Source: Naegleria gruberi
Taxonomy: Eukaryota
DNA: 64,000 nucleotides
Direction: 5' to 3' (one strand)
Assembly (NCBI GenBank): GCA_000004985.1
Contig: GG738903.1
This document shows, one piece after another, positions 2,919 through 63,286 of the stretch. The notes beneath the pieces were generated by a model. The model saw only the letters and a list, made by a program, of their open reading frames with translations, searched no databases and was not told the origin of the DNA. Position 1 is the first letter of the stretch, and each line of letters begins with the position of its first letter. A program made the translations under genes and the position numbers.

Positions 2919-3376
2919 TTTTTTTTAAAGAGTTTTCACAAAGATTACAATAAAAAAAGGCAATTACCATCAACTTGTGTAACAATTATAGAAAATCCGT
3001 ACTATTTGTTGAAATCTTATTGAATAGCAGTATTAGTAATTAAATTATTCCAATTTTTTTGTAATTTAGAACTTCCCAATTTTGCTCCAAGCTCGATTTT
3101 CTTGAAAAACCACCACCACGTGTAAACCTCCTTTTGATACTTGTCCAATTCCTGTTTGTTATTGTATAAATGGTATTCCTTAATTCTGGATTAATATGAT
3201 AAGGTGTTCTTTGTGTGAAATAATTTTTCAATGGATGATTGACTTAACCAGAAAAAAGACAAAACAAATCCTCAGGAATAGGAATTGAGCCATATTTATT
3301 ACAAAAGTTTACAATAGTGTTCAAAATAATTCTAAAGTTGTTTAGATTTTTCAAAAAAATAGATCAAAAAAAAACA

Positions 3377-4226: not shown

Positions 4227-4299
4227 GCCCGTCTAGCTCAGTCGGTAGAGCGCAAGGCTCTTAACCTTGTGGTCGTGGGTTCGACCCCCACGGTGGGCG
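4227..4299 (+). tRNA. tRNA-Lys (anticodon CUU)
   Basis: GCCCGTCTAGCTCAGTCGGTAGAGCGCAAGGCTCTTAACCTTGTGGTCGTGGGTTCGACCCCCACGGTGGGCG folds as a cloverleaf with A and B boxes, a 7-nt anticodon loop CTCTTAA and a 7-bp acceptor stem. It is near-identical to metazoan/fungal tRNA-Lys-CTT. A T-run lies 5 nt downstream. Confidence 0.9.
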
Positions 4300-5962: not shown

Positions 5963-6172
5963 TTTTTTTAAGTTATTCGAATCTTGGTGGAAACGAGTGA
6001 GGTAGAAAAAGTATTGTGATTCTAACTACAAACTGCAAACGTGATGATTTCTATGCAACCTCTCACGTTTCCATTCTATTCGAATCTAATGAAAGAACAA
6101 GAAACGTGAAATCATCACGTTTGCTATTAGAATCACAAATCTCGTTTACAATAAAAACTCAAAAAAAAACGC

Positions 6173-29312: not shown

Positions 29313-29431
29313 GGCTACGGCCATATCACGATGAATGCACCTCATCCCGTCCGATTTGAGAAGTTAAGCATCGTCGAGCCACATCAGTACTGAGGTTGGA
29401 GACAACTTGGGAACCTGTGGTGCTGTAGTCT
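29313..29431 (+). rRNA. 5S ribosomal RNA gene
   Basis: GGCTACGGCCATATCACGATGAATGCACCTCATCCCGTCCGATTTGAGAAGTTAAGCATCGTCGAGCC...GGTGCTGTAGTCT carries the conserved 5S helices and loops (CCCGTCCGAT..GAAGTTAAGC; 3' GGTGCTG). It is about 119 nt and is followed by a TTTTT Pol III terminator. Confidence 0.85.
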
Positions 29432-41047: not shown

Positions 41048-42469
41048 TTATTCATCCGATATCAGTATCCCAATGTCACATAATTGATTATTCTTGAGTT
41101 TTTGGAAAATCTTCTCTACAAAGAAGAATTCTCCAGCAAATCGATACCTCACATGAATGATGGAATCAGTTGAAACATCCTCCTCAGTTTTTCCTCCATA
41201 AAAATACAAGCCACTTCCAGTTGCATCATGCACCAGTGAGGAGCACAATAACCTTCCTGCAGCAACTCCTAATTGAATGCAAACACTCCACTCATTCCTT
41301 TTCAAATCGAAAACATAGCAATCATTTTTAGGTATTCTATTGCTCTGTTCACAACCTCCCAAGCTTAATAAAAAACGTTGATCTATCAAACAAATAGTAT
41401 TGCCATAAATTGGCTGAGGTACTGGGCATATCTTTGTTTCCTCAAATTTCACAACGGTCCAAGAATTTGTTTTGAAATGGAAGATGACCAAATCACATGT
41501 TAAAACAGGTACATCAATGTTCAGCTCACCAGCATAAATGACCATAGAATCGTTTGATGGATTGTAAACTGCTGTAGAAAATGATCTGGACTCTATTGGA
41601 ATATTTGGAACAATTTTTTCTACCCACGTTTCAGTTTCACAATCAAAAACATATAAATCCTTACTGATCCACTCATCGGAATATCCTCCAAACAGAACAA
41701 TGGTATTATTAAATGATCTATACACTGAAACATGTCCATAAATTCCAGGGGCTGGATTATTGACTGCCTCCTCTTCAAAAGGGAAATACTTCCACTCATT
41801 AGTATCCAAATTATATATAGTCAAGTCATTTTCTGGTGTTGAATCATCATTTCGTATACCTCCAATAATGTAGAATGAATTATTCACCGGATTATAATTC
41901 AGTGAATGATAATAGAGAGCATTTGGTGGGCTATCATCCGATTCCTTCATACCAATCGGTGGCAACCATTTCTTCTCCAGAATATCATATCTCTGAAATT
42001 CAATACCGTCATGATCTCTACCTCCCCATGAGTAAATAATTCTCGAGTGGTGATTATCAACAATCTCTGTCGTGTGTGCATAAATACTTAGTGGTTTGAT
42101 GCAATCATCAGCTTGATCACTCTTCTGATCACGATGTTTTTCATCTTCGGAGCCTTCATGTACTGAATGTTTACTCTCTGATGTTGATGATTCCTCATCT
42201 TGATGATGATGATTATGATCTTCCTCTTCAACAATTTCCAACGTAACTTGTAGAGCCACATCATCATCATCATGATCTTTATCTTCATAATTCCTCTTTG
42301 AAAAATTCTGTCTATAAATCAGTGGATAATAGATGGGACACAAGGCTGTATGTCGATAGGTAATAAATTCAATATCAACATGTTCATCTTCTTGTTTATC
42401 ATCATCGGGGATGGCAATGATTTCTTCTGAAGATGTTTTTGATTGTGAATCAGTACTCAAATTATCCAT
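41048..42469 (-). CDS. Kelch-repeat beta-propeller protein with acidic/His-rich N-terminal region
   Basis: ATG at 42469 (MDNLSTDSQ...); the track start at 42487 is GTG. Repeated Kelch blades (...YSWGGRD..., W..LPP..., ...HS.VY...FGG) run through the C-terminal 300 aa. Confidence 0.6.
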   Translation of the reverse strand: MDNLSTDSQSKTSSEEIIAIPDDDKQEDEHVDIEFITYRHTALCPIYYPLIYRQNFSKRNYEDKDHDDDDVALQVTLEIVEEEDHNHHHQDEESSTSESKHSVHEGSEDEKHRDQKSDQADDCIKPLSIYAHTTEIVDNHHSRIIYSWGGRDHDGIEFQRYDILEKKWLPPIGMKESDDSPPNALYYHSLNYNPVNNSFYIIGGIRNDDSTPENDLTIYNLDTNEWKYFPFEEEAVNNPAPGIYGHVSVYRSFNNTIVLFGGYSDEWISKDLYVFDCETETWVEKIVPNIPIESRSFSTAVYNPSNDSMVIYAGELNIDVPVLTCDLVIFHFKTNSWTVVKFEETKICPVPQPIYGNTICLIDQRFLLSLGGCEQSNRIPKNDCYVFDLKRNEWSVCIQLGVAAGRLLCSSLVHDATGSGLYFYGGKTEEDVSTDSIIHVRYRFAGEFFFVEKIFQKLKNNQLCDIGILISDE

Positions 42470-43401: not shown

Positions 43402-44487
43402 TTACTTCAATATTATTATTCGATGATTTTCCTTGTCTGCTATATAGAGCTCGCCAGTGATATGATTGATACACAATCCATTTGGATTTCCCTCACTGAA
43501 CTGGATTGATTTTAGGTAATTTCCCTCTGGTGAAAATATTAAAACTCTTCTATTAGTGATTCCATCACAAACAAGAATTTGTTTTGTGATCTTGTCTACT
43601 GTTACAGATGTTGGAAATTCAAACTCACCAACTCCATTACCTCTGCTACCAAATTTGAAAAATAATACCTTGCCTCTTGTATCTGTAACATACACTCTAT
43701 TATTATGTCTATCAGATATGATACATTGATTTTCATGATTGACTGTAATACCAAAAGGTGACTCCATTTTGAGCTTTCTTTCACATCTCTTTCCAAAAGC
43801 ATATAAAAAGTCACCATCCTTTGAAAGCACTTTAATTCTATGATTGGACGAATCTGATATGAATATATCACCATAATTTCCACCATTTTCAAAAGTATTC
43901 ACATGTATTCCACAAATTCCATTGAATTGATAGGGTCCATTGCCAGGTTTCAATCTTAGACCTCTCCTCCAAAGTTGTTCATGCTTTATCAAATCGTAAC
44001 AATAAATACATTCATCATCACCTGCAACTAATAAATTCCCATAAATATCTATTTCCATAAAAAGTGGTTTGAAAACCAAATCAATTTTATATTGAAATTC
44101 TCGTGTTGTTAAATCAAAGGCTTGAATCCTCCTATTGCCATGATCAGCAACTAGCAATATGTGATTTTCATGTGATATTTTTACATCGTATGGAAGTGAA
44201 AATTTGCCACATTCCGAATCCTCCCAAGAAGAAGCAATAATACCCAAACTATCTTCATCATAGGATGGCATTACCAATAATTTCGGAATGCAACCAACAA
44301 TCTTTAGAGAATCACTCAATCCACATTCCAAAAAATCTTTTGATTTTCTCATCCCTTTCCTCATATTTTCCGTTAATTTTCTCAAGAGCCAATCTAAATG
44401 ACTAAATTCCTCTTCCTCTTGATCAGTCTGCACATGATTAAAATCGTGTAGAATCAACACAAAGGTCACAGCTGATTCTCTTTTCAT
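43402..44487 (-). CDS. NHL-repeat beta-propeller protein (361 aa)
   Basis: ATG at 44487. Repeated NHL-type blades (LLVADHGNRRIQAFD; IFISDSSNHRIKVL; CIISDRHNNRVYVTD; LVCDGITNRRVLIFS; LYIADKENHRIIILK). Confidence 0.6.
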   Translation of the reverse strand: MKRESAVTFVLILHDFNHVQTDQEEEEFSHLDWLLRKLTENMRKGMRKSKDFLECGLSDSLKIVGCIPKLLVMPSYDEDSLGIIASSWEDSECGKFSLPYDVKISHENHILLVADHGNRRIQAFDLTTREFQYKIDLVFKPLFMEIDIYGNLLVAGDDECIYCYDLIKHEQLWRRGLRLKPGNGPYQFNGICGIHVNTFENGGNYGDIFISDSSNHRIKVLSKDGDFLYAFGKRCERKLKMESPFGITVNHENQCIISDRHNNRVYVTDTRGKVLFFKFGSRGNGVGEFEFPTSVTVDKITKQILVCDGITNRRVLIFSPEGNYLKSIQFSEGNPNGLCINHITGELYIADKENHRIIILK

Positions 44488-51430: not shown

Positions 51431-52099
51431 TTATTTTTCTTTACGATACATGACATCTGTTCTCATGACATATTTAAATTCATTTGGATCACTCAACACA
51501 CTTCCTTCATGATAATTCGAATGAACAAACATCAAGACTTGACCTGCTTGTGGTTTCACACTATGAGTTATTTCACATCTCGAATTGAGAAAGTTAGTTT
51601 CACCTCCACTCTCCACATCATTCAAATATAAGAGAACTGTAATGAAAGATCTTTCCACAACTTTCATTTTCTTTCCATTAATTTCCACATTAAGAGTTGG
51701 TCTCTGAAAACAACCATCATAATGAGGAGCAAAATATTCTCCAGCTGCATACTTGTAGAAACGAATTCTTTCATTGAGACCACACAATTTAAAACCATCT
51801 TGTGGACCTACTTTGAGTGATGACACATTCTGTGGCAGGTATTTCTCTAATTTTTTGTAAAGCATGTCAGAATATTGCTTTTTATCAATCATGGCACGAG
51901 AGTTATTTCTAACATCTTTCATCATGGTAGATGAAGTAGGACCTGTTGAAATTGGGGCTTCTCCATAACCAATTTCTTCACTTTCTTTCAAAAGTTTCGA
52001 ACATTCTTCTGTGGAGAATAAATTCTTGATGAGCCAAATGTTGTTTGGATCAATGGTTTCAAGATGTGGTTGCTTAGAGATGGTGGATGAAGAGATCAT
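51431..52099 (-). CDS. 2-oxoglutarate/Fe(II)-dependent oxygenase, prolyl 4-hydroxylase-like (222 aa)
   Basis: ATG at 52099. HxD in ...FAPHYDGCF..., ...ITVLLYLNDVESGGETNFL..., distal His in ...MFVHSNYHEGS...: a P4Hc-type jelly-roll signature. Confidence 0.65.
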   Translation of the reverse strand: MISSSTISKQPHLETIDPNNIWLIKNLFSTEECSKLLKESEEIGYGEAPISTGPTSSTMMKDVRNNSRAMIDKKQYSDMLYKKLEKYLPQNVSSLKVGPQDGFKLCGLNERIRFYKYAAGEYFAPHYDGCFQRPTLNVEINGKKMKVVERSFITVLLYLNDVESGGETNFLNSRCEITHSVKPQAGQVLMFVHSNYHEGSVLSDPNEFKYVMRTDVMYRKEK

Positions 52100-52243: not shown

Positions 52244-52295
52244 GCCCGTCTAGCTCAGTCGGTAGAGCGCAAGGCTCTTAACCTTGTGGTGGGCG
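52244..52295 (+). pseudogene. truncated tRNA-Lys(CUU) copy lacking the T-arm (21-nt internal deletion)
   Basis: GCCCGTCTAGCTCAGTCGGTAGAGCGCAAGGCTCTTAACCTTGTG|GTGGGCG is identical to the tRNA-Lys at 4227–4299 except that GTCGTGGGTTCGACCCCCACG (T-stem/loop, B box) is missing. The same 3' flank ATTC and a T-run follow. Confidence 0.7.
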
Positions 52296-58192: not shown

Positions 58193-60328
58193 ATGAAGAA
58201 AACTTCTTCCTCGCTAGTGAGGAGTTTTTCTTCCGTGTCTGTTGTGATGAAAAATAAGACAATGCAATCATCAAATTTATCAGCATTGATCAATAATTGT
58301 CAAGTACTATCATCCACGAGGAAAAATGCTAGATTTTATAGTGTAAAGCAAACTCTTGGAGGAAATGAAGCCTCCACTCTTAGACAACAAGTTGCTTCTA
58401 CAACATCGTCATCATCTTATGCTCAACAACATCAAGCACCACCAGTGATTGAGCAAGTTGTTGCCGAAGAATCAACAACAACAACAACATCCGAACCAAT
58501 TATTGAAGAAAAACCACTCTTCTCCAAGAAGGAAATTATGATTCTTGAAAGCGAAAAAACAGCACTTGGACACTTGTTGAAAATTATCGAAAACGTTGAA
58601 GGAAGTGAAGAGGATATTGATCTTTTAAGAAAAAGTATTAATCAATTGGAGGAACATTTCTTGATGGTTATTGTTGGTGAATTTAATGCAGGTAAATCAT
58701 CATTCATTAATGCCATGCTCGGAGATCGTTATTTGAGAGAAGGTATTACTCCAACAACAGCTCATCTTCATGTTATTCGTCATGGAGGTGATTCTAATCA
58801 AAAGTTTGACGAGAGAAATCAACTTGTAAATATGGAACTTCCACTCAAGTGGCTTAAAGGTATTAGTGTTGTTGATACACCAGGTACTAATGCCATTATC
58901 AAGGAACATCAAACAATTACAGAAACTTTTGTACCAAGAGCTGATTTAATCATCTTTTTGACCAGTGCAGAAAGACCATTCTCTGAGAGTGAACACACCT
59001 TCCTTGAAATGATTAGAAAGTGGGGTAAGAAGGTTGTTGTCTGTATTAACAAGTATGATTTACTTCAAAATGAAAAGGAACAGGACGAAGTGGAAGTATT
59101 TGTTCGTGATGGTATTATTCGTTTATTGGGCTTTGAACCTAAAATCTTTTGTGTCAGTGCTAGGAGTGCAATGGATTTCAAACAATCATCAAGAATTTCT
59201 TCATTCTTGGCTCCTGAAGAAAGAGAACTTGCCGAAAAACAAAAAAAGACCAAGTTGGCTGAAAATTGGCTTGATTTGGAAAAGTATGTTTTGGACACTC
59301 TGAATTCTATTGAACGTGCCAAGTTGAAATTCCTTTCTCCACTTGGTGTTGCTCAAAATTTATCTGAAAAGTACTTGACAACCAATATTGAAGAAAGATT
59401 AAAGGTATTGAAAGAAGATAAGAAAACTATGGAAATTATTGAAGAACAACTTCAAGTATTTTATAATGATATGAAACAAGATTTTGAATTGCAACAAGCC
59501 AAATTGGAAAATATTTTCCATGAACTTTCTGAACGTGGTACAGGCTTTTACGATAACTTTGTCAATTTGTCTAATATTTCAAGTTTGATCAAGTCCAAGA
59601 TTGTTGCTGAAGAATTCCAAACTCAAGTTATTGCCAATACTGCCACTCAAATTGAAAATCATGTCTCTGAAGTTATTGATTGGATAATTGACAGAAAATA
59701 CAGACAATGGAAAGCTGTGACAGATTTTGCCAATAAGAGAGCTAGAATTTCACTCCATGAAGATAAATTAGTTGGAACTCTTTCAAGTGATTTCCAATTT
59801 AACAGAAAGGAACTTTTACTCAAAATTGGTACCACAGCTGAAAATGCTGTTAGAAGCTATGATAAGGAACATAATGATACTGAAAAGCTCTTCTCTGAAA
59901 TTGCCTCTGGTCTCAAGGCTACAGCTGCTGTAGAAGTCAGCGCTATTACAATTGGTGTTTCTTCTGCACTCTTGATGCCAACTGCTGCTATGGCAGGTGC
60001 TGGTGTTGTTGGTGCCTTAATGGTTGGTGCTGGTGGTCTCTACGCACTCCCATACAAGAGAGCTACAATGAGAAAGAACTTTATTCGTGAAGTTAACAAG
60101 CTTAAGGAAGTTTTAAAGCAAAGAATGAGGGAAGAATTTGAACGAGAATTATTGTCAAGTATTGATAGTATTAAGAATTCAATTACTCCTTACTCTAGAT
60201 TTGTTAAAGCTGAACATGAAAAATTCTCAACTCAAAAGGAAAGACTCATCGAACTTCAAAAGGTTATTAATCAAATCAGAAAGGAAATTGAAAGCTTACA
60301 AGAGGCTGATATTACTAAAAAGATGTAA
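58193..60328 (+). CDS. dynamin-like / BDLP-mitofusin-type large GTPase with predicted mitochondrial presequence and C-terminal hydrophobic segment (711 aa)
   Basis: The N-terminus, MKKTSSSLVRSFSSVSVVMKNKTMQSSNLSALINNCQVLSSTRKNARFYSV, is basic and hydroxylated with no acidic residues (presequence-like). The GTPase has G1 GEFNAGKSSFINAML, G3 DTPG and G4 NKYD, followed by long coiled-coil-like regions. A Gly/Ala-rich hydrophobic segment, AVEVSAITIGVSSALLMPTAAMAGAGVVGALMVGAGGLYALPY, lies near the C-terminus. Confidence 0.6.
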   Translation: MKKTSSSLVRSFSSVSVVMKNKTMQSSNLSALINNCQVLSSTRKNARFYSVKQTLGGNEASTLRQQVASTTSSSSYAQQHQAPPVIEQVVAEESTTTTTSEPIIEEKPLFSKKEIMILESEKTALGHLLKIIENVEGSEEDIDLLRKSINQLEEHFLMVIVGEFNAGKSSFINAMLGDRYLREGITPTTAHLHVIRHGGDSNQKFDERNQLVNMELPLKWLKGISVVDTPGTNAIIKEHQTITETFVPRADLIIFLTSAERPFSESEHTFLEMIRKWGKKVVVCINKYDLLQNEKEQDEVEVFVRDGIIRLLGFEPKIFCVSARSAMDFKQSSRISSFLAPEERELAEKQKKTKLAENWLDLEKYVLDTLNSIERAKLKFLSPLGVAQNLSEKYLTTNIEERLKVLKEDKKTMEIIEEQLQVFYNDMKQDFELQQAKLENIFHELSERGTGFYDNFVNLSNISSLIKSKIVAEEFQTQVIANTATQIENHVSEVIDWIIDRKYRQWKAVTDFANKRARISLHEDKLVGTLSSDFQFNRKELLLKIGTTAENAVRSYDKEHNDTEKLFSEIASGLKATAAVEVSAITIGVSSALLMPTAAMAGAGVVGALMVGAGGLYALPYKRATMRKNFIREVNKLKEVLKQRMREEFERELLSSIDSIKNSITPYSRFVKAEHEKFSTQKERLIELQKVINQIRKEIESLQEADITKKM

Positions 60329-60422
60329 ATTTAAAAGTATATTAATCTAAAGCAACTATTTTGTGTTAATCACTTTATTCTTTATCACAAAATATATTGA
60401 ATGTTTCAAATCAAAAACAAGT

Positions 60423-60493
60423 TGCATTAGCCGGGAGTCGAACCCGGGTCACCAGCTTGGAAGGCTGGTATGATACCGTTACACTACTAATGC
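60423..60493 (-). tRNA. tRNA-Gly (anticodon UCC)
   Basis: The reverse complement reads GCATTAGTAGTGTAACGGTATCATACCAGCCTTCCAAGCTGGTGACCCGGGTTCGACTCCCGGCTAATGCA. The anticodon loop CTTCCAA gives TCC, and the T-arm GGGTTCGACTCCC is canonical. It is near-identical to eukaryotic tRNA-Gly-TCC. A T-run follows on the minus strand. Confidence 0.9.
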
Positions 60494-60520
60494 TTCTCAT
60501 TACATTTCTTAAAATATGAT

Positions 60521-60614
60521 ACTAAACGAGTCAATTATAGCATTTTAAGCATCACTCAAGAGCAAATCAAACACAATCAATTATGCTTAAAATGCTATAA
60601 TTGACTCGTTTAGT
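60521..60614. repeat. 32-bp perfect inverted repeat (hairpin) with 30-nt spacer, about 30 bp upstream of tRNA-Gly
   Basis: Left arm 60521–60552 is actaaacgagtcaattatagcattttaagcat. Right arm 60583–60614 is its exact reverse complement, atgcttaaaatgctataattgactcgtttagt. Confidence 0.8.
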
Positions 60615-60628
60615 GATATGATTCTTGT

Positions 60629-61353
60629 TTTGTGGGCCAACCAATGCTAAAAATGAGCGTAAACGTTCAGTGAGCCTGAATTGATTTACAATTCTGTTCC
60701 TAACCAAAACAACAAATATTTGGTTTATTAATTATATTCTCACATAGATGCTTGTTATTTGATCGAACGGTCTTTTATCTTTCTGTGTTGGAAGAAACAA
60801 TCAATAAAGTTTTGTGTAATTTTTTAGCTAGTGGTTTGTAAACATTAAAAAAACGAGTTTATTTTGGACATTGCTCGATATCTACTTAATGAATCGTATC
60901 AGATTAAATATCACAATGTTATTTAACAAAATTATTATTGTATTGTTTTGTTGGTTTTATTAAAACTGTTGTTATTCTTAAAATGTTAGCAGATAGATAA
61001 GTTTCGGAAATCACTTACAATGGCAACATTTCTTCACTCCACACAATAAAATACTGTGATTACATGCGATCAAAGGTTGAATTTTGGAATATCATTAAGT
61101 AACTAAAAAGTTTGCTCCCAAAATAACATCCGAATAGTGAGCTAATTTACTTTGGGAAAAAATTACTGTTCAACCGATGGTCCAAGATCTATGAATTGAA
61201 TTATTGAAACAAAGATTGTCCTCAGTTTTATGCACAGTGATGTCTACAACGAAAAAACGATGGTAGTATATTAATGTTTTGAAGGTATACAGACATTGAA
61301 CAATACTGTTGGTCTGTATTTTATCATATTTTTTAGGGTTGGTTGGCCCACAA
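60629..61353. mobile_element. candidate MITE-like non-autonomous element (about 725 bp) bounded by 15-bp terminal inverted repeats
   Basis: ttgtgggccaaccaa at 60629–60643 and ttggttggcccacaa at 61339–61353 are perfect reverse complements. The sub-terminal sequences are also similar (..ctaaaaat..). The interior has no ORF and a different composition from flanking DNA. The right end abuts the NHL-like gene's stop codon, 4 nt away. Confidence 0.3.
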
Positions 61354-61357
61354 TATA

Positions 61358-62323
61358 CTAAGAATATATAAGTACTCCAAATTGTCCACTATCACATACA
61401 TAAAGTAGACCACTTAATGGATCAATAATAATTCCAAAACTCTTATAATTTCCACTAACAGATTTAACTTTTGATAAATCCTCCCTTCTAACCACAACAA
61501 GTCTATAACCACCATTATCTGATACATAAATCAAATCAGAGGCCTTCTCATAGAATATAGAATAGGCAAAATTCATTCTAAAAGATGATTTTCGAATAGA
61601 ATTCCATTTTCCTTGCTGTTTTTCAAATAATTCTAAACAAGAATTATGACTCATTAATATTTCATTCTCAGAAAAGCAATGAATACCAAAACCACCACCC
61701 TCAATTTTCCCAATATCATCATCTAAATATTGTAAATGATCTCCATGTTCACGATCTAATATCATAACTGATTTTTCATAATCCACAACATAGAGTTGGG
61801 ATCCCATAACATCCAATCCCCAGATATTATAGTAAGTTTCTTTAGATTTCCAAACAAGAAGTGGATTCTTCCTCATTATATCAGAAACCTTAATCTTTAC
61901 AACATATGGATCAGTAGATGCATAAATATATTCCTCATCCTTCTCCTTAATCAATTTCAAACAATTAAAACAAGTAATTTCCTCAAACTCAACTTCAAAC
62001 AAGGCCTTCCTTCCAATTGACTTGTTTTCATACTCTTCAGCTGTCTCTGCTCTCGGAAAAACACTCAGTGCCGAACCATTCGTTACAATAAATCTATAAT
62101 AATCATTGGAGAGAACAATATCAAAACAATTCGGACCAACATGCCATGCAGAATAATAACCACTAACATTCAGTGATGAAAATTCGAGAGAGTATCGTTT
62201 GGTGGGGATGATATTAATTTTATATTTTAGGAGGTTAATTAAATTATTATTATCGTGATGATCATCATCAGTGGAAGTAAATTGGGACGGAAGAAAATCT
62301 ATCAGCTCAACCTTTACAGACAT
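61358..62323 (-). CDS. NHL/YVTN-like beta-propeller protein (321 aa)
   Basis: ATG at 62323. Blade-like units are LYVVDYEKSVMILD, IYVSDNGGYRLVVV and LYVCDSGQFGVLIY. Confidence 0.5.
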   Translation of the reverse strand: MSVKVELIDFLPSQFTSTDDDHHDNNNLINLLKYKINIIPTKRYSLEFSSLNVSGYYSAWHVGPNCFDIVLSNDYYRFIVTNGSALSVFPRAETAEEYENKSIGRKALFEVEFEEITCFNCLKLIKEKDEEYIYASTDPYVVKIKVSDIMRKNPLLVWKSKETYYNIWGLDVMGSQLYVVDYEKSVMILDREHGDHLQYLDDDIGKIEGGGFGIHCFSENEILMSHNSCLELFEKQQGKWNSIRKSSFRMNFAYSIFYEKASDLIYVSDNGGYRLVVVRREDLSKVKSVSGNYKSFGIIIDPLSGLLYVCDSGQFGVLIYS

Positions 62324-62872: not shown

Positions 62873-63286
62873 ATGAAAACCAATTCAATGGATCGCTTAT
62901 TTGATAATTTGATGAGATTATACTTGACATTGCTGGCAGAAACTCAAACTAATCTTGAACAAATACAAGTTGATAAAACAATAAGTGCCAGTAATCCACA
63001 AGTGTTGGAAGAAAACCAAAAAGTTTCCACTCAGACATCGTACGAAACATCTAATGTAGACAATGATTCGAATAATGTAATTTGTGATACAATCTCGCAA
63101 AGCGAACCACTTCCAAGTAATAGAAACGAAAGCTCATCTACCGATCATACAAACAATAGGACTGAATTGAATTTTGTAATAGTTAGTGCCTCGACCATTT
63201 CAGAGAAATGTTATTCGAAAGTTAAAAGAGGAAGAGGAAGACCAAGAAAAAATACACTAAACAATAATAACAATACCAACAAATAA
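62873..63286 (+). CDS. small AT-hook protein (137 aa)
   Basis: ATG at 62873. The C-terminal KVKRGRGRPRKNTLNNNNNTNK contains an AT-hook core (RGRGRPRK). Confidence 0.45.
   Translation: MKTNSMDRLFDNLMRLYLTLLAETQTNLEQIQVDKTISASNPQVLEENQKVSTQTSYETSNVDNDSNNVICDTISQSEPLPSNRNESSSTDHTNNRTELNFVIVSASTISEKCYSKVKRGRGRPRKNTLNNNNNTNK

What the first reader, a model, noticed from the sequence alone, without database searches (positions are those of the whole stretch)
60494..61357. Composite non-coding insertion directly upstream of tRNA-Gly: 32-bp perfect hairpin plus MITE-like element with 15-bp TIRs
The 5' flank of the minus-strand tRNA-Gly holds a perfect 32-bp inverted repeat with a 30-nt loop (60521–60614). 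It is followed within 15 bp by a roughly 725-bp ORF-less segment bounded by perfect 15-bp terminal inverted repeats ttgtgggccaaccaa / ttggttggcccacaa, with similar sub-terminal sequence. The position, immediately upstream of a Pol III gene, is the classic integration window of tRNA-targeting mobile elements (Ty1/Ty3, dictyostelid TREs). The right TIR ends 4 nt from the neighbouring gene's stop codon. It could be a novel non-autonomous DNA transposon or foldback element with target preference for tRNA upstream regions.
Basis: seen in the sequence. Interest (0 to 1): 0.55.

Follow-up and report, generated by a model that had tools for sequence, protein, structure and literature searches.

The report
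Palindromic mini-transposon remnant beside tRNA-Gly
The long spacer upstream of a Naegleria gruberi tRNA-Gly gene holds a 94-bp palindromic element with the hallmarks of an old miniature DNA transposon, plus a 724-bp non-coding stretch bounded by a short inverted repeat of unclear origin; nothing indicates a mobile element that targets tRNA genes.

Summary
The window is Naegleria gruberi. Both observations are real, with coordinates 1-2 nt off. A perfect 32-nt inverted repeat with a 30-nt loop (60521-60614) lies 27 nt upstream of tRNA-Gly(TCC). A perfect 15-nt inverted repeat (22/24 with sub-terminal bases) bounds an ORF-less 724-bp segment (60630-61353) that ends 4 nt from the stop codon of an orphan NHL-like gene.

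New evidence:
- The hairpin is flanked exactly by an 8-bp direct repeat, AATATGAT/GATATGAT (chance about 1e-3). It therefore has the anatomy of a miniature foldback/MITE insertion.
- A near-identical strain in an ENA metagenome carries the same arm start at the same site, so the insertion is old and shared, not recent.
- The 724-bp segment has no target-site duplication at any boundary, no coding remnant, and no similarity to anything reachable.
- No second copy of either element was found, but the N. gruberi genome itself could not be searched.
- The three other tRNA loci in the window and one in N. lovaniensis lack such inserts, so tRNA targeting rests on a single case.

Verdict: a modest finding. 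The hairpin is a probable new small MITE-like element. The "second MITE" and the tRNA-targeting reading are unsupported. The side observation worth follow-up is unusually diverged tRNA-Gly flanks between near-identical strains.

The parts
60423..60493 (-). tRNA-Gly(TCC) gene. A T5 Pol III terminator (60413-60417 on the + strand, read as A5) lies 5 nt past its 3' end.
   Evidence: ARAGORN and Rfam RF00005 at 69.3 bits. The gene is 100% identical in ENA strain contig L005, including about 10 nt on each side.
60513..60520 (.). Left copy of the 8-bp flanking direct repeat (AATATGAT), a putative target-site duplication of the hairpin element.
   Evidence: It matches the right copy at 7/8 and abuts the arm exactly. 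The empirical chance is 1.2e-3.
60521..60614 (.). 94-bp palindromic (foldback/MITE-like) element: 32-nt perfect arms (60521-60552 and 60583-60614) and a 30-nt loop.
   Evidence: The outer 18 nt of the left arm is present at the same position in ENA strain L005 with 1 difference. Rfam gives only generic miRNA-hairpin hits below gathering score.
60615..60622 (.). Right copy of the 8-bp flanking direct repeat (GATATGAT).
60630..60653 (+). Left arm of the long-range inverted repeat. The core TTGTGGGCCAACCAA (60630-44) is perfect, and the arm is 22/24 with sub-terminal bases. Before the hairpin insertion it lay 34 nt upstream of the tRNA 5' end.
60654..61329 (.). AT-rich (30% GC) interior with no ORF. 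It has no tandem repeat of note, no Rfam family, no box C/D signature and no A/B box.
61330..61353 (-). Right arm of the long-range inverted repeat. It ends 4 nt before the stop codon of the neighbouring gene.
61358..62323 (-). Neighbouring gene: a 321-aa N. gruberi orphan (XP_002671756) and distant NHL-type beta-propeller. Its C-terminus is complete, so it is not truncated by the segment.
   Evidence: (the only hit is itself), and (aligns to paralogue 43402-44487 up to 2 residues before both stops).
60338..60404 (.). Spacer between the dynamin-like gene and the tRNA 3' end. It is barely alignable between NEG-M and the ENA strain (94 vs 124 nt), although the adjacent gene is 99.7% identical. 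This is the left edge of the hyper-diverged tRNA-Gly block.

Best explanation
The 864-bp spacer is ordinary fast-evolving tRNA-flanking and intergenic DNA of Naegleria gruberi. It contains one recognisable relic of transposition.

(1) The 94-bp palindrome (60521-60614) is a miniature non-autonomous DNA transposon of the foldback/MITE type. A transposase made a staggered 8-bp cut in the AT-rich site AATATGAT, 20-27 nt upstream of the tRNA. It inserted a unit made of two 32-bp terminal inverted repeats around a 30-bp core, and gap repair duplicated the 8-bp target. The anatomy (terminal inverted repeats, target-site duplication, exact junctions) is shown. Mobility and superfamily are inferred; an 8-bp duplication is compatible with hAT, P and others. 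The insertion predates the split of two N. gruberi strains and is tolerated by an intact, conserved tRNA gene.

(2) The 724-bp segment bounded by a 24-nt (22/24) inverted repeat is most likely the 3'-UTR and intergenic DNA of the orphan NHL-like gene. It may be a long-decayed element that has lost its duplication, but it is not a demonstrable MITE.

(3) The position next to a tRNA gene is incidental: gene-poor, AT-rich DNA in a compact genome. It is not evidence of Pol III-directed targeting.
For: Hairpin anatomy:
- Arms are perfect.
- The flanking direct repeat is 7/8 and abuts both arms exactly, with empirical chance 1.2e-3.
- Deleting element plus one repeat copy restores a continuous AT-rich site.

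Shared insertion: ENA contig L005 comes from a strain whose dynamin-like gene is 99.7% identical (3/269 fourfold sites differ). It has the same tRNA-Gly and, at the same junction (..GTGAT|AGTAAACGAGTCAATTAT..), the start of the same arm.

Lineage-specific block: more distant Naegleria (N. lovaniensis L001, ENA L002) have the dynamin-like orthologue but neither the tRNA-Gly nor the element.

724-bp segment:
- No target-site duplication and no ORF.
- No Rfam family and no snoRNA or Pol III motifs.
- No match of any reading frame in 5.8 billion proteins.
- Inverted-repeat pairs of similar class occur elsewhere in the window without any element, for example inside a Kelch ORF.

No targeting: the other Pol III genes have short plain flanks. 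No transposase, RT or integrase is present in the window.
Against: - No second copy of the 94-bp element was found: window, related loci (31), viral (29, 81), JGI metagenome (39, which returned only a plant false lead) and prokaryotic genomes (80). Multi-copy status, a defining MITE property, is therefore unshown. None of those collections contains the N. gruberi genome, so this is absence of a test, not a negative result.
- The termini ACTAAACG.. (AGTAAACG.. in the ENA strain) match no superfamily consensus known to me.
- The 22/24 inverted repeat around the 724-bp segment is unlikely to be chance. It fills the spacer almost exactly, from 4 nt past the stop codon to 34 nt from the tRNA. The "ordinary spacer" reading does not explain this.
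- The insertion site at -20 to -27 is inside the usual TFIIIB footprint, which is where Ty3 and DGLT-A integrate (my own knowledge). A single case cannot exclude targeting.
Confidence: 0.5

Rival explanations
1. A tRNA-targeting mobile element family. The hairpin and/or the 724-bp inverted-repeat element belong to non-autonomous DNA transposons whose transposase is recruited to the TFIIIB/TFIIIC-bound region, so copies accumulate just upstream of tRNA genes in Naegleria.
For: Two inverted-repeat-bounded units sit in a single tRNA upstream region. The hairpin's target site is at -20 to -27, and the left inverted-repeat arm was at -34 before the hairpin inserted. This spacer is far longer than those of the other tRNAs.
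Against: None of the 4 other tRNA loci examined (three in the window, one in N. lovaniensis), nor the 5S gene, has such an insert. No second copy was found in any searchable DNA. The 724-bp unit has no target-site duplication. No transposase was found.
Confidence: 0.07
2. A functional hairpin. The 94-nt perfect stem-loop is maintained by selection as an RNA (a Dicer substrate or miRNA-like precursor, perhaps read through from the upstream orphan gene) or as a DNA cruciform that modulates Pol III initiation. Its arms co-evolve.
For: The structure is very stable (z = -9.4). It is retained at the same site in two strains. If the 8 differences between the strains' left arms are real, the 32/32 complementarity in NEG-M implies mirrored changes on both arms. 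It scores 56 bits against generic miRNA-precursor models.
Against: All Rfam hits are below gathering score and are driven by generic pairing. The flanking 8-bp direct repeat points to insertion, not to a structure that evolved in place. Seven of the 8 arm differences lie in the last 14 nt of a low-coverage contig and may be assembly error. The right arm of the other strain is unseen, so there is no true covariation test. The element is absent from other Naegleria species.
Confidence: 0.13
3. Turnover of a tRNA-Gly cassette. The whole block from 60338 rightwards (tRNA 3' spacer, tRNA, 5' flank, hairpin, possibly the 724-bp segment) is a unit that was acquired in the N. gruberi lineage. It is repeatedly overwritten by ectopic recombination or gene conversion with paralogous tRNA-Gly loci, perhaps triggered by breaks at the palindrome. 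The inverted repeats are by-products.
For: There is a sharp identity break at 60337/60338 next to a 99.7% identical gene. The 3' spacer is almost unalignable (94 vs 124 nt), and the 5' flank plus arm is 24% diverged against a 3.5% intergenic baseline. The tRNA-Gly is absent from this position in N. lovaniensis and in L002.
Against: No paralogous tRNA-Gly locus is available for comparison. Elevated divergence at -10 to -23 is also what transcription-associated mutagenesis predicts (PMC6130373), and the tRNA-Lys pseudogene locus shows a milder version of it. This rival does not explain the hairpin's flanking direct repeat.
Confidence: 0.15
4. The 724-bp segment is a solo LTR, or a Ginger/integrase-type DNA transposon remnant. 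Its termini read 5'-TGTGGG...CCCACA-3' (TG...CA), as in LTRs of Ty3/gypsy elements, some of which insert upstream of tRNA genes.
For: The termini are literally TG...CA within a 14-nt inverted repeat. The size is within the LTR range. The position was about 34 nt upstream of the tRNA before the hairpin inserted.
Against: There is no 4-6-bp target-site duplication. No other copy exists and no RT, integrase or gag is present in the window. The neighbouring ORF is an NHL-like cellular paralogue, with no polypurine tract before the repeat.
Confidence: 0.07
5. The long-range 15/24-nt inverted repeat is a coincidence in AT-rich DNA and bounds nothing.
For: Perfect 15-mer inverted pairs within 1 kb arise in 15% of randomised windows, and a 17-nt pair lies inside a coding ORF.
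Against: The 22/24 match was unique in the window and absent from 20 randomised windows. BLAST E is about 1e-3. The repeat is GC-rich in an AT-rich context.
Confidence: 0.08

Closest known systems
MITEs / foldback-type miniature DNA transposons (eukaryotic non-autonomous class II elements)
   Same: The hairpin unit is short (94 bp) and non-coding. It consists almost entirely of two perfect 32-bp terminal inverted repeats and is flanked by an 8-bp direct repeat abutting the termini. It sits in AT-rich DNA near a gene.
   Different: No second copy or autonomous partner has been seen. The termini (ACTAAACGAG..) fit no superfamily consensus I know. Superfamily assignment from an 8-bp duplication alone (hAT, P and others) is not possible.
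tRNA-gene-targeting retroelements (yeast Ty3 and Ty1; dictyostelid TRE5, TRE3 and DGLT-A)
   Same: Location within a few tens of bp upstream of a Pol III-transcribed tRNA gene.
   Different: Those are retrotransposons with RT and integrase, short 4-6-bp (or variable) duplications, and many copies at a fixed distance from many tRNA genes. Here there is no coding capacity, a different duplication length, one locus only, and other tRNA genes are unoccupied.
Transcription-associated hypermutation of tRNA flanks (Thornlow et al. 2018, PMC6130373)
   Same: The tRNA is perfectly conserved while its immediate flanks are far more diverged than background. Substitutions cluster at -10 to -23.
   Different: The reported effect is about 4x in the inner 20 nt and about 1.5x further out. 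Here the 3' spacer is essentially replaced, and divergence is 24% against a 3.5% baseline out to -59. Part of this may be contig-end error.
MITE-derived miRNA-like hairpins (e.g. Rfam MIR6288 and other plant MIR families)
   Same: A perfect hairpin of about 90 nt, scoring 56 bits over the full model length.
   Different: The score is below the gathering score of 74, and the similarity is generic pairing plus AT-richness. The organism is unrelated and there is no expression evidence.

Membership tests
MITE (hairpin element 60521-60614) | Short (<800 bp) and without coding capacity | tested here: met
   94 bp. There is no ORF apart from a 46-aa frame that runs out of the element.
MITE (hairpin element 60521-60614) | Terminal inverted repeats | tested here: met
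   32/32 complementary arms.
MITE (hairpin element 60521-60614) | Target-site duplication directly abutting both termini | tested here: met
   AATATGAT / GATATGAT, 7/8, at 60513-20 and 60615-22. Empirical chance 1.2e-3.
MITE (hairpin element 60521-60614) | Multiple dispersed copies in the genome | not testable with these tools
   The N. gruberi assembly is not in any DNA collection or contig index. There are no copies in the 64-kb window, related loci, or the viral, JGI-metagenome or prokaryote collections.
MITE (hairpin element 60521-60614) | Presence/absence polymorphism or an empty site in a relative | tested here: inconclusive
   The close strain L005 has the element at the same site, so it is not polymorphic there. 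Distant species lack the whole tRNA block, so no clean empty site exists.
MITE (724-bp segment 60630-61353) | Terminal inverted repeats | tested here: met
   15/15 perfect, 22/24 with sub-terminal bases. Unique in the window and absent from 20 random windows.
MITE (724-bp segment 60630-61353) | Target-site duplication | tested here: not met
   There is no exact match of 3 nt or more, and no one-mismatch direct repeat of 6 nt or more, at boundary offsets of -4 to +4.
MITE (724-bp segment 60630-61353) | Multiple copies | not testable with these tools
   No copies in any reachable collection. The genome itself is not searchable.
tRNA-targeting mobile elements (Ty3, DGLT-A, TRE type) | Recurrent insertion at a characteristic distance from many tRNA genes | tested here: not met
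   None of the other Pol III loci examined has such an insert: tRNA-Lys 4227, tRNA-Ala 12690, the tRNA-Lys pseudogene 52244, 5S 29313, and tRNA-Thr in L001. The sample is small.
tRNA-targeting mobile elements (Ty3, DGLT-A, TRE type) | Retroelement features (RT/integrase, an LTR with a 4-6-bp duplication, or a poly(A) tail) | tested here: not met
   No such domains occur in window ORFs. There is no 4-6-bp duplication.
Solo LTR | TG...CA termini plus a 4-6-bp target-site duplication | tested here: not met
   The TG...CA termini are present but there is no duplication.
Rfam miRNA precursor families (MIR6288 etc.) | Score at or above the family gathering threshold | tested here: not met
   56.5 bits against a gathering score of 74. 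The other families score lower still.

The most novel reading that the evidence does not exclude
Naegleria carries a family of palindromic DNA elements that integrate into the TFIIIB-bound region just upstream of tRNA genes, and whose arms evolve in concert. The evidence for concerted change is 8 differences between strains in one arm while the two arms remain perfectly complementary. This would be the first DNA-transposon-type, tRNA-directed integration system in Heterolobosea. The adjacent 724-bp inverted-repeat-bounded unit would be a second member.
Probability: 0.06. Interest if true: 0.7.

Novelty: new member of a known kind. Interest (0 to 1): 0.27.

Why it matters
If the 94-bp element proves multi-copy, it would be a newly described MITE/foldback family in Naegleria gruberi, whose mobile DNA is barely characterised. 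I found no paper describing MITEs or tRNA-associated elements in Naegleria.

The more useful lead is population-genetic. Two strains with about 99.7% identical genes differ drastically in the DNA around this tRNA-Gly gene, while the tRNA itself is identical. That makes the locus a candidate case of tRNA-flank hypermutation, or of cassette turnover next to a fragile palindrome, in a protist.

None of this changes current understanding unless genome-wide association with tRNA genes is shown.

Tried and rejected
- **Synteny-based empty site.** N. lovaniensis (L001) and a more distant ENA Naegleria (L002) share only the dynamin-like gene. Their downstream neighbours differ and there is no tRNA-Gly, so no clean empty site exists.
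- **Exact-protein look-ups of window genes.** These were meant to reach the N. gruberi assembly, but it is not on record.
- **Metagenome scan with the 12-nt hairpin termini.** It gave two hits (L003, L004). Both are one plant locus, with LINE-RT ORFs and a (TA)n tract. It shares only about 14 nt, and these lie inside a longer, different inverted repeat. Rejected as a false lead.
- **Other DNA scans.** Scans for the 24-nt long-range repeat consensus and for the arm core conserved between strains found nothing in viral, metagenome or prokaryotic collections.
- **Six-frame concatenated translation of the spacer.** Searched against 5.8 billion proteins, it gave no hit at E<=10.
- **Rfam.** Only sub-threshold generic hairpin hits, and no snoRNA, snRNA or other family. 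A regex scan found no box C/D or A/B box motifs.
- **Truncation of the neighbouring gene by the insertion.** Rejected, because the orphan aligns to its NHL paralogue to within 2 residues of both stops.
- **LTR retrotransposon with the orphan as an internal ORF.** Rejected: no polypurine tract, no gag or pol, and the ORF is an NHL-like cellular paralogue.
- **Outward extension of the long-range repeat (I2, 38 nt, 79%).** It partly consists of the hairpin's right duplication copy and the orphan's last codons. I treat it as AT-rich coincidence.
- **Literature.** Nothing on Naegleria MITEs or tRNA-associated elements.

Full report
**Source and context.** The window is from Naegleria gruberi. The 711-aa ORF at 58193-60328 is 100% identical to XP_002671692, and the 321-aa ORF at 61358-62323 is XP_002671756, both on a 304-kb scaffold. 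The genome here is compact, at 30-37% GC with a median ORF-free gap of 142 bp. The 864-bp spacer between tRNA-Gly and the next gene belongs to the second-longest ORF-free gap in the window.

**Checking the observation.**
- tRNA-Gly(TCC) is at 60423-60493 on the minus strand. A T5 terminator lies just past its 3' end.
- A perfect 32-nt inverted repeat (60521-60552 and 60583-60614, 30-nt loop) starts 27 nt upstream of the tRNA. It folds at -48.5 kcal/mol, z = -9.4.
- Fifteen nt further on, TTGTGGGCCAACCAA (60630-60644) is repeated in inverted orientation at 61339-61353. This bounds 724 bp with no ORF longer than 31 aa inside it.
- The right repeat ends 4 nt before the TAG stop codon of the minus-strand gene.

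**Is the 15-nt repeat more than chance?** The hairpin is far beyond chance. The 15-mer pair alone is not: at least one such pair within 1 kb arose in 9 of 60 randomised windows, and a 17-nt pair of the same class lies inside a Kelch-repeat ORF. With its sub-terminal bases the match is 22/24. That was unique in the window and absent from 20 randomised windows, and BLAST E is about 1e-3. I accept it as probably non-random.

**What the hairpin is.** The 8 nt immediately left of the left arm (AATATGAT, 60513-60520) and the 8 nt immediately right of the right arm (GATATGAT, 60615-60622) form a 7/8 direct repeat. For 8-mers flanking any 94-nt stretch of this window, the empirical probability of a 7/8 or better match is 1.2e-3. 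Two perfect terminal inverted repeats, a short core and an exactly abutting 8-bp duplication are the anatomy of a miniature foldback/MITE-type DNA transposon insertion. Removing the element and one repeat copy gives a continuous AT-rich site. It also places the left arm of the long-range repeat only 34 nt from the tRNA.

**Age of the insertion.** The 90% cluster of the dynamin-like protein contains an ENA metagenome protein, P0122. Its 2.5-kb contig, L005 (sample ERZ929261), is from essentially the same species: 99.7% nucleotide identity over the gene, with 3 of 269 fourfold sites differing.
- L005 has the same tRNA-Gly in the same place and orientation.
- After a 27-nt 5' flank it reads AGTAAACGAGTCAATTAT.., which is the start of the same arm at the same junction. 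The contig then ends exactly at the arm/loop boundary.
- So the element predates the split of these strains and is not a private recent insertion.
- More distant Naegleria (N. lovaniensis L001 and ENA L002) keep the dynamin-like gene but have other neighbours and no tRNA-Gly. The whole tRNA block is therefore specific to the N. gruberi lineage.

**An unexpected divergence pattern.** Identity between NEG-M and L005 changes sharply along the locus.

| Region (window coordinates) | NEG-M vs L005 |
|---|---|
| Up to 60337 (9 nt past the stop codon) | about 100% identical |
| 60338-60404 | barely alignable (94 vs 124 nt) |
| tRNA plus about 10 nt each side | 100% identical |
| 27-nt 5' flank | 6 differences |
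| 32-nt hairpin arm | 8 differences |

- Control contigs from the same sample give a pooled intergenic substitution divergence of 3.5% (20/566).
- The 5' flank of tRNA-Lys at 4227 has 2 differences in 58 nt. The flank of the tRNA-Lys locus at 52244 has 5 in 24 nt and is near-identical beyond that.
- The differences at -10 to -23 fit transcription-associated mutagenesis of tRNA flanks. The reported effect is about 4x in the inner 20 nt, about 1.5x at -21 to -40, with a peak at -12 to -15 (PMC6130373). Here P = 0.19 at 4x baseline.
- The near-replacement of the 3' spacer does not fit, and neither do 8 of 32 differences in the arm (P = 4e-4 at 1.5x baseline).
- Caveat: 7 of the 8 arm differences lie in the last 14 nt of a low-coverage contig that ends at a hairpin, so they may be assembly error. 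The outer 18 nt differ at only 1 position.
- If the differences are real, the 32/32 complementarity in NEG-M implies that both arms change together. This could happen by templated repair within the palindrome, by conversion from another family copy, or by selection on the stem. I cannot decide among these without the other strain's right arm.

**What the 724-bp segment is.** I could not show that it is an element.
- It has no target-site duplication at any boundary offset of -4 to +4 and length 2-10, and the repeat does not extend inward past 24 nt.
- Its termini literally read TG...CA, but it lacks the 4-6-bp duplication expected of a solo LTR.
- There is no polypurine tract, and no RT, integrase, gag or transposase in any window ORF of 180 aa or more.
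- It has no Rfam family, no box C/D or A/B box motifs, and no notable tandem repeats.
- No reading frame matches any of 5.8 billion predicted proteins.
- The neighbouring orphan gene is a distant NHL-type beta-propeller with a complete C-terminus, so nothing has been truncated.
- The segment fills the spacer almost exactly, from 4 nt past the stop codon to 34 nt from the tRNA before the hairpin inserted. That remains unexplained. It could be the orphan's 3' UTR closed by a long-range stem (fold z = -4.1), or a decayed transposon.

**Copies elsewhere.** None were found.
- The window has none, and nor do the related loci.
- IMG/VR has none, and nor do prokaryotic genomes.
- The JGI metagenome scans found nothing real. 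The only hits, L003 and L004, are a plant locus sharing about 14 nt inside a different, longer inverted repeat.
- None of these collections holds the N. gruberi genome, and exact-protein look-ups show that the assembly is not indexed.

**tRNA targeting.** The three other tRNA loci and the 5S gene in this window, plus tRNA-Thr in the N. lovaniensis locus, have short ordinary flanks. The known tRNA-targeting elements (Ty1, Ty3, TRE5, TRE3, DGLT-A; my own knowledge) are retroelements with many copies at fixed distances. None of their defining features is met here. The insertion site at -20 to -27 does fall within the usual TFIIIB footprint, but one case is not a pattern.

**Verdict.** The hairpin is best read as an old, fixed, miniature foldback/MITE-like DNA transposon insertion with an 8-bp target-site duplication. 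It is a probable new member of a known kind, pending copy-number evidence. The "second MITE" and the tRNA-targeting hypothesis are unsupported. Interest is modest. The most useful follow-ups are a genome-wide BLAST of both units and reconstruction of the second strain's allele from ERR1078381 reads.

Noticed in passing
window 52244-52295 (+); L007: Rfam calls a 52-nt 'tRNA' here (36.7 bits) that ARAGORN skips. It is a tRNA-Lys(CTT) pseudogene in NEG-M with internal deletions in the T-arm. The ENA strain has the intact 73-nt gene at the same place, identical to tRNA-Lys at 4227-4299. This is a recent strain-specific tRNA gene death.
   Followed up: partly
window 60337/60338 through at least 60552; L005: There is a sharp switch from about 100% identity to barely alignable DNA between two N. 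gruberi strains, immediately after the dynamin-like gene's stop codon. The tRNA itself is 100% conserved. This points to hypermutable or recombinationally replaced tRNA-Gly flanks.
   Followed up: partly
window ~3200-3345; L006: A 146-bp stretch upstream of the dual-specificity phosphatase gene is present in NEG-M but absent in the ENA strain. It has no terminal inverted repeats or target-site duplication, so it is an ordinary indel polymorphism.
   Followed up: partly
window 6012-6140: A second intergenic imperfect hairpin lies between divergent ORFs. It has 17-nt perfect arms at 6035-6051 and 6108-6124 plus outer arms of about 13 nt. Its sequence is unrelated to the tRNA-Gly hairpin and it has no flanking duplication.
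   Followed up: partly
window 41636-41652 / 42433-42449: A 17-nt perfect inverted repeat about 780 nt apart lies entirely inside a 479-aa Kelch-repeat ORF. It is a useful internal control showing that such pairs occur without any mobile element.
   Followed up: yes
window 29313-29431 (+): A 5S rRNA gene (105 bits) sits between two protein-coding genes with short flanks and no associated repeats.
   Followed up: no
window 51431-52099 (-); P0124: The 222-aa 2OG-Fe(II) oxygenase has a second N. gruberi copy at 90% identity or more (XP_002668684) on a separate 14-kb scaffold. This is either an unmerged alternative haplotype or a recent duplication.
   Followed up: no
window 62873-63286 (+): A 137-aa orphan ORF has a sub-threshold Pfam hit to the TFIIIC zinc-finger (E = 0.005, 17 bits against a cutoff of 23) and an AT-hook-like KRGRGRPRK motif. 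It lies about 1.5 kb from the tRNA-Gly. This is probably coincidence.
   Followed up: no
L003 2455-2580 / L004 57-182 (JGI metagenome Ga0228711 / Ga0228710): A plant contig, with LINE-RT ORFs and a (TA)n tract, carries a MITE-like inverted repeat. It contains the motif ACTAAACGAGTC(G)AATTATA, also found at the terminus of the Naegleria hairpin. The similarity is limited to about 14-19 nt and was judged coincidental.
   Followed up: yes
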